Assembly: GCA_011911785.1 (NCBI GenBank)
Contig: GCA_011911785.1_4084.1
Direction: 5' to 3' (one strand)
Length of the DNA: 64,000 nt
From: a phage
A program made the translations under genes and the position numbers. Of the stretch, positions 44,617 to 59,478 are shown piece by piece. The notes beneath the pieces were generated by a model. That model did no database searches, was not told the origin of the DNA, and saw only the letters and a program-made list of their open reading frames with translations. The number at the start of each line of letters is the position of its first letter. Position 1 is the first letter of the stretch.

Positions 44617-44991
44617 TTATGCTTTTTTACGTAGGATGTATTGTCCATTATGTAATTTAATTTTGTGAATCATGTACATAGTGCAAAACCCTTCAATACC
44701 TGCTTCTTCATCTTTCAATTTAATGAAGAAAGTATTATCTCTTAGGCTTTCTACAAGGCTTTCATCTGAATCTTCGAAATTCATGATATATGAATCTTTA
44801 TTTCTATACACCATCTGAACATATTCATAAACCTTACCGCTTTCATCGATTAGATCATAAGTATGTGCTGAACGTTGTTTTAAAATATATAGTTTACCAA
44901 GAATAGCTGCTCCATTAATTTTAGCACCAGTAATTTCGATACCATTAATAGAAAAAGGAAGTCTTCCGGTTAATGCAATTGGTTTACCCAT
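44617..44991 (-). CDS. stand-alone copy of the N-terminal module shared by the giant Ig-like proteins
   Basis: Start set at ATG 44991 (GGAG RBS upstream; MGKPIALTGRLPFSING parallels MKAISSEGKLPFGIGG and MKPIAGLDQFPFVIGG). Confidence 0.6.
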   Translation of the reverse strand: MGKPIALTGRLPFSINGIEITGAKINGAAILGKLYILKQRSAHTYDLIDESGKVYEYVQMVYRNKDSYIMNFEDSDESLVESLRDNTFFIKLKDEEAGIEGFCTMYMIHKIKLHNGQYILRKKA

Positions 44992-45048
44992 TATTATACT
45001 TCTCCAAGTAAAGTGCATGAAAATTATCATGCACTATATTATTAAAAA

Positions 45049-56800: not shown

Positions 56801-59478
56801 TTGTCATAAACCCATTCACCAATGTGTTGAGCCGTATCAGGTTCATATTTCACTTCAATATCAAAAGATTCACCCAACGGAACAGTTTCATTTGCAGGTG
56901 ATAAAGTAATCCCAGTAAGTGCATCATAACTTGCAACACATGTGTTTGTTGCGGAGTGTCCAGTTGACTTATATGTTAATGTTAATGGAGTATCTGATTT
57001 CTTAATAACCTTAAATATCCCTTTTTCATATTCTCCATTATTAAGATGTTCCAAATATTCATGGTCGAATAACCAAACACCAAAATGATATGCAGTATCA
57101 GGTTCATATTTTATATCAATAGTGAATGTTGAACCTAATGGGGCAATTTCGGATGTAGGAGAAAGTGAAATCCCAGTTAATACATCATGTGATGAATCAA
57201 CGTTAACATATGCTGGATATGCATTACCATTTTGGTAGCTCATACTAACATTTGGTGATTTCTCAATAATTTTAAAGTGAGCACGTTCAGGTGTACTGTC
57301 ATCTAAATGAGTCAAATAATATTGATTGTAATACCACGCACCAGCATGTTCTGCATTATCAGGTTCATATGTTAAATCAATATAGAAATCAGTTCCGACT
57401 GGTGCAATAATTTTAGAAGGATTTGCTGTTATTATAGTTGGTGTTACAAAAGGAACACTACCATAAATGGTATTACTTGTAATGGAACCAGACTTATAGG
57501 TAAATGCAAGTTTATCTTGTGTATCTTTAATAGCTAAGAATCTTGCATAATTTGGTGCTTCTGGGTCCATTCCTTGATACTCAAAATGTTCTTTGTCATA
57601 TTCCCATGTACCAGTGTGTTCTGCTTCATCAGGTGTATAAGTTAGTTCAATATATGCAAGTTCACCAACAGTTAATATTTGGAATCGTATAGGGTCATAA
57701 GCAGCAATTGTAAGTGATTCCAAATCTTTATAATCAACTTTACACTCATTAGTTGCAGTAACTTTACCTTCTGAGTACACTAAATCAATTTTATCAATAT
57801 GTTTTAATGCTTTAAAGTGTGCTTTATCAGCAGTTGACTTAGTACTATCAAATGTGATATATTCTTTAAACGTATCAGTATTCCATGCACCTTCGTGTTT
57901 AGCGGTGTCTGGTACATAAGATATCTCAATATCAAATTCATCACCAATCTTCACAGTTTCTGATGTAGGATTCAGTACTAGTGAAGTTAAATCAGAATAT
58001 AGGACATTGAAGCTAACTGTTTTAGCATCACCACCACCATCTGGGGTAAATGTTGCAGTTGTGGTTCCTTGCTTCTTGGCTACGTAGTACATTACATCAT
58101 CGGTACTTTTAGTTGTATCTTCTTCAACGATCCCAACTGGTTCAAATGTCCAAGTACCACCTTTTTGTGCATTGTTTGGTGTATAAGTAATGTCAATTTT
58201 ACCAGTACTTTCTGGTTTGATATTGGATACAGTACTAGGTGTTAACACTACACTTTTCAAATCAGCATACTCAACCGTGAAGTTGACTTCTGGTAAATCT
58301 TTAGTATAATCTGCACTTGGTGTAAATGTAGCTTTTGTACTACCATGTTCAAGTAGCTGGTAATCAAATTTAGTATCTGTATGCGAAATACTTTTTACTA
58401 TATTAGTATCATCAATTGACCATGTTCCACCTTGTTTGGCGTTATCAGGGGTATAGATTATTTCAATCGTGCCAGATGAACCCGCTTTGTCATCTACAGA
58501 GGCAGGTTTGAGTTCTACATTGTCCAACGCAGCATAAGTTATGTCAATTGTTGCAGCCGCAGTTTTAGTTTTATCTTCATTTAATGTGAAGAGTACACTG
58601 GTGGTTGGGTGAACATTTTCTTTGACAGCTATTGCTTTAAACGTTATACTATTTTCGTCTTCACTTACAACTTCAAGAACATTTGTGTTGTATCCACTCC
58701 ATACACCACCACGTTTAGCTGGGGCATAATCGACTGGATCATAAACAACAGATACAGTAAATGTATCATTAAGTTTTACATCAATTGGGTTTGGGTTGAG
58801 AGAAACACTAAAGAGGACGTTAGGATCATCATGTAAATGACCGAACGCGGTTGATTTTAAATGAGGTTTGTTTGTGGGAGTGAATGATATTTCTACTGGA
58901 ATATCACCATCAATGACTCCTGCTTGGAGGATAATACTATTTTTATCACTATGTACTTCAGTTAAATGTTCAGTTGGGTATGTCCATGTACCAGATTGGT
59001 CAGGCCAATCTTTCGGAGAGAAGTAAGCAGTGAATTGCATTTTATCATTTGAATAAAGAACAAAATCATCTGGCTTTATTATAACTTTAGACAACGAATT
59101 TGGCTCCACGTTCGTTCTTCTGAAAATTATTTCACCATTATGTAATTTTATTTTATTACTTTGATATTGAATACCAAAACCATACTTATTATTAATAGCA
59201 TCAGCTTCTTTTATGCAAAATGTATTATTTGCTAAAGATTTAGCAATTTCAGCATCGTCATCATCATACAACAATGTTGATTTATCTTTATTTCTACCTG
59301 TGATTTTTATATCTTTGTAAATCTTGAAATTTTCAGATATTAAATCATATGAATCGAATGTTCTTTGTTTTATAACATACAATTCTTTAACAAATACTTG
59401 CCCTTCTATCTTTGCAGCAGTAACCTGCAATCCACCTATAACAAATGGAAATTGATCTAAGCCAGCTATTGGTTTCAT
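53833..59478 (-). CDS. giant Ig-like repeat protein (1881 aa) with conserved N-terminal module
   Basis: N-terminal ~125 aa paralogous to 44617..44991 and 45049..47475; about 18 tandem repeats (e.g. DSTPDRAHFKA...YTPDTA.H.G.W); AAGGAG RBS. Confidence 0.8.
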   Translation of the reverse strand: MKPIAGLDQFPFVIGGLQVTAAKIEGQVFVKELYVIKQRTFDSYDLISENFKIYKDIKITGRNKDKSTLLYDDDDAEIAKSLANNTFCIKEADAINNKYGFGIQYQSNKIKLHNGEIIFRRTNVEPNSLSKVIIKPDDFVLYSNDKMQFTAYFSPKDWPDQSGTWTYPTEHLTEVHSDKNSIILQAGVIDGDIPVEISFTPTNKPHLKSTAFGHLHDDPNVLFSVSLNPNPIDVKLNDTFTVSVVYDPVDYAPAKRGGVWSGYNTNVLEVVSEDENSITFKAIAVKENVHPTTSVLFTLNEDKTKTAAATIDITYAALDNVELKPASVDDKAGSSGTIEIIYTPDNAKQGGTWSIDDTNIVKSISHTDTKFDYQLLEHGSTKATFTPSADYTKDLPEVNFTVEYADLKSVVLTPSTVSNIKPESTGKIDITYTPNNAQKGGTWTFEPVGIVEEDTTKSTDDVMYYVAKKQGTTTATFTPDGGGDAKTVSFNVLYSDLTSLVLNPTSETVKIGDEFDIEISYVPDTAKHEGAWNTDTFKEYITFDSTKSTADKAHFKALKHIDKIDLVYSEGKVTATNECKVDYKDLESLTIAAYDPIRFQILTVGELAYIELTYTPDEAEHTGTWEYDKEHFEYQGMDPEAPNYARFLAIKDTQDKLAFTYKSGSITSNTIYGSVPFVTPTIITANPSKIIAPVGTDFYIDLTYEPDNAEHAGAWYYNQYYLTHLDDSTPERAHFKIIEKSPNVSMSYQNGNAYPAYVNVDSSHDVLTGISLSPTSEIAPLGSTFTIDIKYEPDTAYHFGVWLFDHEYLEHLNNGEYEKGIFKVIKKSDTPLTLTYKSTGHSATNTCVASYDALTGITLSPANETVPLGESFDIEVKYEPDTAQHIGEWVYDKEYLQYNAAQSVEYEKGNFTVIKKSDTPLTITFEQGSVKGNSICDAKYDKLTDFSITPASEIVPLGETFVIDITYTPDTAQHIGTWDYDKDHLELLNPDDYDKPQFKVLKKSDTPLVISFTSAGITKTNTCDARYDLLTSVDLTPDSETVLNGDTFTIDISYTPDSAQHIGTWEYDTDMIKLIEPINYEQQQFQVLKRSDTPTVLKYTSTNGKYAENTCTAKYDKLVKLTLSPDNETVSVGDIIDIAITYEPSTAEHKGDWAYDETYLKLDTSKSTADVGVFEVIAKPPSTESTQQISFSSAGVTTENTCSILYDKLESVSVNPPSINVNDGDTFDVTITYVPDTALKSGKWSYETDYFSYLTSRSTESEAYFDVIKQLPDSKKLTFTSAKKSADVTVIPYSQLTDVKLSPESVTPAIGDDFYIDITYTPDTAQHIGTWNTSDFEEYLSLESDSTPDKAHFQVKKYSSSPITLTYTSSGKSSSSTCTIQHSALSAITISPSTIEVKTGDDFYIDITYTPDSAEHTGTWNTSGFDQYLTLESDSTPDRAHFKAIKTVDELELQFICGNIVSNKTICYVDYSVLESISLSPATEELDAGDDFYIDITYTPDTADHKGSWSYSLSDGSVAVGYFELLSDSTPDRAHFKALKSDPNPISLIYTSSGKTATNKCTVVHDIIQSISLGLPGKNDYHKGMEFKVNIVFKPSNVIPLAGTFSGEALNYCEYIPAKSTLTEAYFKVTAYDPSVGDSYYQQPVYGIDYFDEDEIPVDKTAEVLGAPFDLVYTIPGYAPATAQITPLRPYVESFTITPDSFTTKANSYGNYVVMTVNPPDAIGDGRLHESVVALPPYDYKVFSDSHNLMTILETPPEGIDVKFKYTQGTGHDAYSTNSVHIVSTASPLVSVDFIEKTTKSDHVNITALGKMYVAFLTNHPDDALYTGTLTYDETYLSVNWPPMKTIVHFYLIKKPENPITLTYEVKEAGITKTITITADF

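What the first reader, a model, noticed from the sequence alone, without database searches (positions are those of the whole stretch)
44617..59478. Leftward operon of five Ig-like repeat proteins (15 kb) with a shared N-terminal module present also as a stand-alone gene
The 1881-aa and 808-aa proteins and the 124-aa stand-alone ORF share a ~125-aa N-terminal module (LPFxIGGIxVxxAKIxG...LYxxKQR...YDLI). The 808-aa protein continues with classical Big_2-type repeats; the 567-, 629-, 832- and 1881-aa proteins carry 7 to 18 copies of a different ~90-aa repeat (G-D-x-F-x-I-x-[IV]-x-Y-x-P-D-x-A-x-H-x-G-x-W-x-Y-D ... S-T-x-[DE]-R-A-H-F-K). This modular architecture, with a common anchor and variable repeat arrays, suggests exchangeable virion fibers/adhesins or capsid decoration proteins and a possible cassette mechanism for host-range variation.
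Basis: seen in the sequence. Interest (0 to 1): 0.6.

Follow-up and report, generated by a model that had tools for sequence, protein, structure and literature searches.

The report
Hypervariable Ig-fibre gene cluster, jumbo coliphage
A giant E. coli virus carries a 15-kb block of six genes for long, acidic chains of antibody-like (Ig) domains. Three of the six proteins start with a shared ~120-residue module that published proteomics finds in the virus particle in related phages. The block most likely makes dispensable, swappable surface "hairs", an oversized version of the T4 Hoc type of decoration, rather than anything fundamentally new.

Summary
On the minus strand, 44617-59478, lie six genes. 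Three begin with a shared ~120-aa module: a stand-alone 124-aa protein, an 808-aa protein with 8 Big_2 domains, and a 1881-aa protein with about 18-20 Ig-like domains. Three anchor-less proteins (832, 629, 567 aa) carry 9, 7 and 4-5 copies of the same divergent ~88-aa Big_2-like repeat.

The window is an Asteriusvirus (121Q/PBECO4-like jumbo myophage). The module is conserved in 62 Rak2-like jumbo-phage records, always beside dCMP deaminase on the opposite strand. Published virion proteomics detected two homologues: phAPEC6 gp347 (75% coverage, the highest in that table) and CBB_112. Its predicted all-beta fold matches no solved structure.

The locus is hypervariable. A genome with 98% identical flanks carries a different four-gene cassette, and the breakpoint falls at the end of the module. 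Phage A4 lost 11.4 kb of the cluster through a 9-bp microhomology deletion, so the cluster is dispensable.

Best reading: Hoc/Hex-Dec/pb10-like virion decoration fibres, with an N-terminal anchor and a variable Ig array. The attachment site is probably the capsid hexamer centre, and the role is accessory adhesion. How the anchor-less proteins attach is unknown. This is a new variant of a known kind, of moderate interest.

The parts
44617..44991 (-). p124: stand-alone N-terminal module (124 aa, pI 7.8). It belongs to paralogue class C, the '124 type'.
   Evidence: Module HMM E = 2e-55. Hits PHROG 10468 and 33171, 'virion structural protein'. 100% identical to A4_463, which is annotated 'putative structural protein'.
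45049..47475 (-). p808. The module is aa 1-122 (about 47110-47475), followed by 8 Big_2 Ig-like domains. The array is acidic, pI 4.7.
   Evidence: Pfam Big_2 E = 3e-135 over 8 stretches. Module alignment. Big_2 copy number varies among relatives: protein lengths are 808, 722, 633, 555 and 465 aa.
47512..47525 (-). Promoter-like box GTATAATATAAATA, which contains the only TATAAATA in the 64-kb window, 37 nt upstream of the p808 ATG.
   Evidence: TATAAATA occurs once against 12.3 +/- 3.5 expected. The box is conserved upstream of the 808-class gene in A4, UE-S1 and L010. Its function as a late promoter is inferred from T4 biology and has not been shown.
47549..47568 (-). Terminator-like hairpin followed by a T-run, after p567.
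   Evidence: sequence shown.
47580..49283 (-). p567: anchor-less Ig-array protein. It has 4-5 recognisable repeats plus a divergent C-terminal half.
49296..51185 (-). p629: anchor-less Ig-array protein with 7 repeats, pI 4.5.
   Evidence: tblastn against 50,697 GenBank phage records finds no match.
51203..51230 (-). Hairpin (GATGCCATTTCGGTGGCATC) between p832 and p629. It may act as a partial terminator.
51244..53742 (-). p832: anchor-less Ig-array protein with 9 repeats. Its first domain passes the Pfam Big_2 threshold.
   Evidence: 46.2 bits against a cut-off of 22.8.
53809..53820 (-). Second exact copy of GTATAATATAAA, upstream of p832.
   Evidence: This 12-mer has only two exact copies in the window, both in this cluster.
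53833..59478 (-). p1881 (209 kDa). The module is aa 1-122 (about 59113-59478). It is followed by about 18-20 Ig-like domains with net charge -123.
   Evidence: dN/dS against L016 is 0.08 for the module and 0.13 for array aa 123-1300.
59521..59548 (-). Sigma-70-like promoter candidate (TTGACC-16-CATATT) in the divergent intergenic region upstream of p1881.
   Evidence: The upstream sequence is conserved in L011 and L016. This is a consensus match only.
44589..44615 (.). Bidirectional terminator-like hairpin between the convergent 86-aa ORF and p124. It marks the cluster boundary.
47613..47621 (.). TTGGTCAGG, one arm of the 9-bp microhomology at the junction of the 11.4-kb deletion in phage A4.
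58996..59004 (.). TTGGTCAGG, the other arm of the A4 deletion microhomology.

Best explanation
The cluster is an expanded, hypervariable version of a locus found in Rak2-like jumbo phages that encodes non-essential virion-surface Ig-like decoration fibres.

The ~120-aa N-terminal module is a neutral to basic, beta-rich domain with two sub-domains. It docks the protein onto a repeated site of the particle. The most likely site is the centre of capsid hexamers, as for T4 Hoc, T5 pb10 and Felixounavirus Hex-Dec (inferred).

The strongly acidic chain of Big_2-like Ig domains then projects outward as a flexible monomeric filament. From the usual ~4 nm per Ig domain (my own estimate), p1881 would reach about 70-80 nm and p808 about 30 nm. 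These filaments would give weak, multivalent adherence to glycans on host cells or in the environment (inferred).

The stand-alone 124-aa module occupies such sites without carrying a fibre.

Diversity arises in three ways (shown by comparison): recombination that keeps the anchor and swaps the distal array together with the three anchor-less genes; gain and loss of repeats; and deletion.

The anchor-less p832, p629 and p567 are probably accessory fibre components of the same set. Their mode of attachment is unknown.
For: Shown by tools:
- Module homology among the three window proteins.
- The module is found in 62 jumbo-phage records: Asteriusvirus, Alcyoneusvirus, Mimasvirus, Eneladusvirus and others, with 1-3 copies each. 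In every locus inspected it lies next to dCMP deaminase on the opposite strand.
- PHROG 33171 and 10468, 'virion structural protein'.
- The repeat has an Ig/Big_2 fold.
- The arrays are acidic (pI 4.5-4.9) and the modules are neutral to basic.
- dN/dS is 0.07-0.14, so these are real, constrained genes.
- Cassette replacement with the breakpoint at the module boundary, with flanks 98% identical.
- The same gene order occurs in three further divergent loci, where orthologues are only 30-39% identical.
- The A4 deletion shows the cluster is dispensable.

From papers:
- phAPEC6 gp347, a stand-alone module, has the highest coverage in the virion proteome. CBB_112 is in virions.
- The 10-A phAPEC6 map shows an unassigned 'fiber-anchoring protein' of dimeric shape at every hexamer centre. 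This fits a module with two sub-domains.
[quoted passage not shown] They are encoded outside the structural module and are mis-annotated as tail proteins.
Against: - No protein of this particular cluster has been looked for in virions.
- The binding site (capsid or tail) is not determined by anything done here.
- Internal pseudo-symmetry of the module is not detectable by sequence.
- Three of the six proteins lack the anchor and show no conserved terminal segment.
- phAPEC6 and CBB are 'hairy' yet lack this repeat family. The known hairs are therefore made of something else.
- Only p808 has a T4-late-like promoter box. p1881 has a sigma-70-like one, so late expression is not established.
Confidence: 0.6

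Rival explanations
1. The proteins are virion decoration fibres, but they are anchored on the tail (sheath rings, collar or neck) rather than on the capsid. In other words they would be tail 'hairs'.
For: phAPEC6 and CBB carry hairs in rings along the sheath, and the genes for these are unassigned. Big_2 domains decorate tail tubes, for example lambda gpV, which was the top fold match. RefSeq labels homologues of the module-bearing proteins 'major tail protein'.
Against: The 'tail protein' label comes from the Big_2 domain only; every PDB sequence hit to RaK2 gp496 covers residues 125-211. The same mislabelling is documented for the capsid-bound Hex-Dec. The hairy phages phAPEC6 and CBB have no homologue of the long repeat proteins. 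The very high coverage of phAPEC6 gp347 fits a high-copy capsid site better.
Confidence: 0.2
2. The proteins are receptor-binding proteins or tail fibres that set host range, and they are exchanged as cassettes.
For: The pattern of a conserved N-terminal anchor with a swapped distal part is typical of tail fibres. Alleles are extremely divergent.
Against: The viable isolate A4 has lost four of the genes. The repeat family is absent from every GenBank phage record searched, including the Asteriusvirus coliphages, and 121Q carries only the bare module in this slot. Only Ig-like domains were detected by Pfam, with nothing at the distal ends. The cluster lies in an otherwise plus-strand region of ligase, ClpP and deaminase genes rather than among structural genes. 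Tail-fibre proteins were assigned to other gene products in phAPEC6 and CBB.
Confidence: 0.05
3. Only the three module-bearing proteins are virion components. The anchor-less p832, p629 and p567 act off the particle, for example released at lysis as soluble glycan-binding or decoy proteins, or acting inside the cell.
For: These three have no module and no conserved terminus. L011 keeps them while lacking the 808-class and 124-aa genes.
Against: No signal peptide or enzymatic domain was seen. From my own recollection of the survey by Fraser et al. 2006 (cited in PMC5259590, not re-read here), phage Ig-like domains occur almost only in virion structural proteins. The fixed gene order with p1881 in four loci suggests one functional set.
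Confidence: 0.15
4. The cluster is an artefact or decaying junk: mis-assembled repeats or pseudogene fragments of a single giant gene.
For: The sequence is repetitive. L007 shows a split 1881 homologue.
Against: Identical proteins occur on contigs of 358,987, 356,920 and 28,262 bp. The DNA repeats are only 60-84% identical. Each gene has its own RBS and a conserved start. dN/dS is 0.08-0.14. Intact orthologous ORFs occur in four divergent loci.
Confidence: 0.01

Closest known systems
RaK2 gp496, CBB_112, GAP32 Ig-domain protein and 121Q gp471 / phAPEC6 gp347 (PHROG 33171 and 10468)
   Same: Direct homologues of the N-terminal module, 32-54% identical. They sit in the same genomic slot beside dCMP deaminase on the opposite strand. 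Virion presence was shown by MS for CBB_112 and phAPEC6 gp347.
   Different: Those genomes encode the module alone or the module plus a single Big_2 domain (125-345 aa, 1-2 genes). Here there are six genes over 15 kb, arrays of 8 and about 20 domains, and three anchor-less array proteins. That repeat family is absent from all 50,697 GenBank phage records searched.
Felixounavirus Hex-Dec (Bas63) and Mooglevirus Sf14 gp20
   Same: [quoted passage not shown] The protein is a monomer at hexamer centres. It is acidic, encoded away from the structural module, variable between species, and mis-annotated as a tail protein.
T4 Hoc
   Same: A non-essential, acidic chain of Ig-like domains projecting from the capsid. 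Attachment to bacterial surfaces and gut mucosa is among the roles cited for it.
   Different: In Hoc the capsid-binding domain is C-terminal, so the domain order is reversed. It has only 3 Ig domains and a single gene. No sequence relationship was detected: no Hoc family appears among the Pfam hits.
T5 pb10
   Same: [quoted passage not shown] From my own knowledge, it binds at hexamer centres and is dispensable.
   Different: It has one Ig domain. No fold match to the module was found.
Bacterial Big_2 adhesins (intimin/invasin, Leptospira Lig proteins)
   Same: Long tandem arrays of Big_2-type Ig domains that act as extended adhesive stalks. LigA and Big_2 structures are among the best fold matches to the repeat.
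   Different: Those proteins are anchored in a bacterial outer membrane and are secreted. The proteins here have no signal peptide or membrane anchor and are phage-encoded with a virion-binding module.

Membership tests
Rak2-like jumbo-phage 'module + Ig' virion proteins (PHROG 33171 / 10468) | Homologous ~120-aa N-terminal module | tested here: met
   PHROG E-values range from 2e-20 to 9e-8 for the three window modules. tblastn finds 62 jumbo-phage records. Foldseek against BFVD matches the same proteins with TM up to 0.86.
Rak2-like jumbo-phage 'module + Ig' virion proteins (PHROG 33171 / 10468) | Conserved position: opposite strand, adjacent to the dCMP deaminase gene | tested here: met
   Holds for the window and for A4, UE-S1, 121Q, RaK2, CBB, EJP2 and fHe-Yen9-04.
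Rak2-like jumbo-phage 'module + Ig' virion proteins (PHROG 33171 / 10468) | Physical presence in purified virions | not testable with these tools
   Shown only for homologues: phAPEC6 gp347 (75.2% coverage) and CBB_112 (24.3% coverage).
Big_2 (PF02368) Ig-like domain | Sequence match above the Pfam gathering score | tested here: met
   p808 scores 440.8 bits over 8 domains. The first domain of p832 scores 46.2 bits against a cut-off of 22.8. The ~88-aa repeats of p1881, p629 and p567 do NOT reach any Pfam threshold; they give only sub-threshold HYDIN/ASH/Cep192 hits.
Big_2 (PF02368) Ig-like domain | Ig-like beta-sandwich fold of the new ~88-aa repeat | tested here: met
   The AF2 model has pLDDT 96.2. 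The top PDB matches are the lambda gpV Big_2 domain (TM 0.72), Big_2-CBM56, the SU10 tail protein and LigA. All have E >= 1.3e-3, so the repeat is a distant variant.
T4 Hoc family | Homologous C-terminal capsid-binding domain, with Ig domains N-terminal to it | tested here: not met
   The anchor here is N-terminal. There is no Hoc hit in Pfam, and no PDB sequence or fold hit to the module.
Hex-Dec / Sf14 gp20 family | Homologous N-terminal capsid-binding domain (helical or two-lobed) | tested here: not met
Hoc-like decoration proteins in the functional sense | Binds the centre of capsid hexamers as a monomer | not testable with these tools
   The only support is indirect: an unassigned hexamer-centre density in the phAPEC6 and 121Q maps.
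Hoc-like decoration proteins in the functional sense | Dispensable for growth | tested here: met
   The A4 isolate lacks p567, p629, p832 and most of p1881 through a microhomology deletion. 121Q has only the bare module in this slot, and no GenBank phage record carries the repeat family.
Tail fibre / receptor-binding protein | Trimerisation or beta-helix or tip domains, location in the tail module, essentiality | tested here: not met
   Only Ig-like domains are detected. The cluster lies among ligase, ClpP and deaminase genes. It is dispensable.

The most novel reading that the evidence does not exclude
The cluster might encode a multi-component capsid 'hair' system. The anchored 209-kDa protein, or the bare module sitting on hexamers, would serve as a dock for the three anchor-less Ig-array proteins. 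Different module paralogues would select different quasi-equivalent hexamers of the T=28 shell. The whole distal set would be swapped as a cassette between otherwise near-identical phages. This would amount to a second, capsid-borne adhesion-specificity system that evolves like a receptor-binding locus. It would also identify the unassigned hexamer-centre 'fiber-anchoring protein' of 121Q and phAPEC6.
Probability: 0.15. Interest if true: 0.75.

Novelty: new variant of a known kind. Interest (0 to 1): 0.5.

Why it matters
- It offers a candidate gene family (121Q gp471, phAPEC6 gp347 and relatives) for the unassigned hexamer-centre density of T=28 jumbo-phage capsids.
- It points to a probable third, structurally unrelated solution to the design 'capsid-binding domain plus Ig chain', alongside Hoc and Hex-Dec/pb10.
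- The expanded cluster would be an unusually long Ig-chain decoration: about 20 Ig domains against the 1-4 of the characterised cases (Hoc, pb10, Hex-Dec/gp20).
- It is a hot spot that differs completely between phages whose flanks are 98% identical. That is a natural experiment for asking what Ig decorations are selected for.
- The conserved anchor with a free C-terminus could also serve as a display scaffold on a very large capsid.

Tried and rejected
1. PDB sequence searches with the module, as a single sequence and as a profile, gave only noise, E >= 0.18.
3. hhalign of module lobe 1 against lobe 2 found no internal duplication detectable by sequence.
4. The word-indexed search of 5.8 billion proteins with the repeat profile found nothing. 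The exhaustive HMMER search was needed, and it found 14 close family representatives.
5. tblastn of p629 against GenBank phages found no match. These proteins are therefore not the CBB or phAPEC6 hairs.
6. IMG/VR and JGI metagenome scans with the module returned only one 121Q-type locus each.
7. I looked for a conserved terminal 'anchor' segment in the anchor-less classes and found none.
8. Pfam on the distal ends of p1881, L011_1095 and p567 found no domain.
9. Stop-codon read-through fusing p629 to p567 was considered. The gap is in frame in the window, L010 and L011 (coordinates). It is 10 nt in L016, by my own count from the coordinates. I dropped the idea.
10. The stand-alone module as an obligatory adaptor for the anchor-less proteins is weakened, because L011 has the anchor-less genes without it.
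11. The fEgEco12 paper contains nothing on this locus.

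
Full report
**Source and context.** The window is part of an Asteriusvirus genome, a 121Q/PBECO4-like, 'Rak2-like' jumbo myophage of E. coli. The flanks of the region match Escherichia phage A4 at about 96% and other Asteriusvirus records at 82-87%. The window's own proteins are deposited as 'hypothetical protein [Escherichia coli]' on a 358,987-bp contig. The identical 1881-aa protein is also found on contigs of 356,920 and 28,262 bp. Every ORF of 200 aa or more in the window is on the plus strand, except for the block at 44617-59478. 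That block sits between a dCMP deaminase gene followed by a small ORF, and a ClpP/crotonase-like gene. The surrounding region encodes ligase, phosphoesterase, ClpP, Sir2 and PhoH, not structural proteins.

**Checking the observation.** All six ORFs exist as described.
- The N-terminal ~120 residues of the 1881-aa and 808-aa proteins and the whole 124-aa protein align with 33-42% identity and 32 invariant positions.
- A family HMM finds exactly these three copies in the six-frame translation of the window, at E = 1e-49 to 1e-55.
- p808 continues with 8 Pfam Big_2 domains.
- The other four proteins consist of a ~88-aa repeat whose copies are 19-46% identical, with an invariant Trp. The HMM counts are 18 in p1881 (17 contiguous plus one near the C-terminus), 9 in p832, 7 in p629 and 4-5 in p567.
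- The repeat is not a new fold. An AF2 model (pLDDT 96) is an Ig-like sandwich whose best solved matches are Big_2 domains: lambda gpV at TM 0.72, Big_2-CBM56, LigA and the SU10 tail protein. By sequence it stays below every Pfam threshold.
- At the DNA level the repeats are only 60-84% identical. Together with the identical copies on independent contigs, this removes the worry about assembly collapse.
- 'Operon' is too strong a word. Each gene has its own Shine-Dalgarno sequence. Terminator-like hairpins follow p567 and p832. A bidirectional hairpin closes the cluster at 44589-44615.
- The exact 12-mer GTATAATATAAA occurs only twice in 64 kb, upstream of p808 and upstream of p832. The p808 copy contains the only TATAAATA in the window, against 12.3 +/- 3.5 expected. 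That box is conserved upstream of the 808-class gene in A4, UE-S1 and L010.
- By analogy with T4 late promoters this suggests late transcription, but that is an inference. p1881 is preceded instead by a sigma-70-like match.

**What the module is.** The module hits PHROG 33171 and 10468, both labelled 'virion structural protein'.
- tblastn finds it in 62 phage records, all jumbo myophages of the Rak2-like group: Asteriusvirus, Klebsiella RaK2/K64-1/Muenster, CBB, GAP32, Serratia BF, Yersinia fHe-Yen9, Erwinia pEa_SNUABM, Xanthomonas XbC2 and Salmonella 7t3/SE_PL. There are 1-3 copies per genome.
- In every locus inspected it occupies the same slot, on the opposite strand next to dCMP deaminase.
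- In most genomes it is either alone (121Q gp471 and phAPEC6 gp347, 125 aa) or followed by one Big_2 domain (RaK2 gp496, 212 aa; CBB_112, 218 aa). fHe-Yen9-04 has two tandem paralogues.
- Two published virion proteomes contain it. CBB_112 gave 4 peptides and 24.3% coverage (PMC5259590). phAPEC6 gp347 gave 8 peptides and 75.2% coverage, the highest coverage in that table and above the major capsid protein at 74.9% (PMC7247149; the gene was identified).
- The module paralogues fall into old classes. The 1881 type includes RaK2 gp496 at 52%. The others are the 808 type, the 124 type, the 121Q type and the CBB type. Members of one class in different phages are more alike than different classes within one phage. 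This is compatible with distinct binding sites or partners.
- The AF2 model of the module (pLDDT 83) has two five-stranded beta sub-domains separated by one short helix.
- No internal duplication is detectable by sequence.

**Comparative genomics of the cluster.** No GenBank phage record has a detectable homologue of p629. A word-indexed search of 5.8 billion proteins with the repeat profile also found nothing. An exhaustive HMMER search of 1.84 billion representatives found 14 family members at E < 1e-30, followed by generic Ig-repeat proteins. Their contigs show the same arrangement:
- L010: 1859, 874, 713, 84, 680, 465 and 124 aa.
- L016: 1871, 836, 714, 877, 262, 555 and 124 aa.
- L011: 1095, 839, 541 and 733 aa. 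L011 is a 357,761-bp contig in an E. coli assembly and has no 808-class or 124-aa gene.

The gene order is conserved: an anchored long protein, then the 832, 629 and 567 classes. The sequences are not.
- Orthologues are 35-36% (832 class), 35-39% (629 class) and 30-31% (567 class) identical to the window proteins. That is barely above the 26-28% between classes.
- L011 has flanks 98.4% and 98.8% identical to the window. DNA similarity stops at window position 59119, which is residue ~120 of p1881 and the end of the module. It resumes at 44313.
- L016 (flanks 83-91%) and L010 (flanks ~78%) stay collinear into p1881 up to about 55480-55740 and then diverge.
- The locus is therefore a recombination mosaic. 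The anchor is kept, and the distal array plus the anchor-less genes are replaced.
- The Big_2 array of the 808 class differs in length among relatives: 808, 722, 633, 555 and 465 aa.
- In phage A4, 11.4 kb (window about 47621 to 58996) are deleted between two copies of TTGGTCAGG. Truncated remnants of the 1881 gene are left behind. The window's arrangement is therefore ancestral to A4's, and the cluster is dispensable for propagation.
- The genes are nevertheless constrained. dN/dS against L016 is 0.08 for the p1881 module, 0.13 for array residues 123-1300, 0.14 for p124 and 0.07 for the p808 module. Flanking enzyme genes give 0.03-0.04.

**Mechanism.**
- The arrays are very acidic. p1881 has net charge -122, and pI values range from 4.5 to 5.05. 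The modules are neutral to basic. The Bas63 authors describe a similar negative charge distribution for Hoc and Hex-Dec.
- The architecture of an N-terminal anchor of ~120 aa followed by a variable Ig chain matches Sf14 gp20 and Bas63 Hex-Dec. Both bind hexamer centres as monomers. They have 1-4 Ig domains depending on the species, and the Bas63 gene lies more than 10 kb outside the structural module. The Bas63 authors found Hex-Dec annotated as a 'tail protein' in most Felixounavirus genomes. RefSeq similarly calls RaK2, K64-1 and CBB homologues 'major tail protein'.
- Their anchor is described as largely helical, so the relationship is analogy, not homology.
- The 10-A map of phAPEC6 is reported as indistinguishable from that of 121Q. 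It shows an unassigned 'fiber-anchoring protein' of dimeric shape at the centre of each hexamer, and an unassigned second layer equimolar with the MCP. An abundant 14-kDa protein with two sub-domains (gp347) is a natural candidate for the former.
- I therefore favour capsid hexamer centres as the docking site. This step is inferred, and a tail site remains possible.
- Assuming the usual ~4 nm per Ig domain (my own estimate), p1881 would extend about 70-80 nm, comparable to the capsid radius.
- A role in weak multivalent adherence is carried over from Hoc and Hex-Dec as summarised. It was not tested here.
- The hairs of phAPEC6 and CBB cannot be these proteins, because those genomes lack the repeat family.

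**Open problem.** p832, p629 and p567 have no module. They have no conserved terminal segment across alleles and no recognisable extra domain. They persist in L011, which lacks the stand-alone module. Whether they ride on p1881, bind elsewhere, or act off the particle cannot be decided with these tools.

**Verdict.**
- It is not supported for host-range determination or for tail fibres.
- The system is a new, greatly expanded and hypervariable variant of the known class of Ig-chain decoration proteins.
- Its anchor domain has an undescribed fold and is specific to the jumbo-phage lineage.

Noticed in passing
whole window; L011: The window's proteins are deposited as E. coli proteins (EES8153968-72, FOI42_RS03790-03805) on a 358,987-bp contig. 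L011 is a 357,761-bp contig of GCA_012813795.2. Complete jumbo-phage genomes are therefore sitting unflagged inside E. coli isolate assemblies, which could reflect a carrier state or contamination.
   Followed up: partly
window 1-64000; single site 47512-47519 (-): The octamer TATAAATA (the T4 late-promoter consensus) is strongly depleted: 1 occurrence against 12.3 +/- 3.5 expected. The single copy lies upstream of the 808-aa gene and is conserved in A4, UE-S1 and L010.
   Followed up: partly
window 47613-47621 and 58996-59004; L001 17054-17062: The 11.4-kb deletion in phage A4 relative to the window lies between two copies of TTGGTCAGG. It leaves the annotated mini-ORFs A4_465 and A4_466, which are remnants of the 1881-aa gene.
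   Followed up: yes
L007 3661-4422: A 253-aa protein with Collagen (weak) and YadA_anchor Pfam hits is encoded in the flank of a 97.6%-identical relative, between the PhoH gene and small ORFs. This is a trimeric-autotransporter-like anchor in a phage genome. The corresponding region lies outside this window.
   Followed up: no
L007 10001-13955: The 1881-aa homologue is split into 112 aa plus more than 1221 aa in this Logan contig. The cause could be a frameshift or a sequencing error. The contig also ends inside the repeat array, at window position ~55520.
   Followed up: no
window ~55480-55740; L010 10729; L016 8349: DNA similarity of two different relatives to the window stops at nearly the same place inside p1881, around residues 1250-1330. 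This is in the sub-family of repeats carrying the WNTSDFExY..LESDSTPD(K/R)AHF motif, which L011's 1095-aa protein also has. It may be a recombination hot spot.
   Followed up: partly
L010 17340-17594; L016 17328-18116: Relatives carry extra small anchor-less Ig genes (84 aa in L010, 262 aa in L016) ahead of the 808-class gene, after the 629-class gene in L010 and after the 567-class gene in L016. The window has no counterpart.
   Followed up: no
window 45986-46483 (+): A 165-aa ORF lies antisense to the Big_2 repeats of p808. It is rich in V, A and T, and is almost certainly a by-product of the repeat's codon pattern rather than a gene.
   Followed up: no
window 59479-59676: The divergent intergenic region has sigma-70-like matches in both directions: TTGACC-16-CATATT towards p1881, and TTGACA-17-TACTAT towards the ClpP-like gene.
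   Followed up: no
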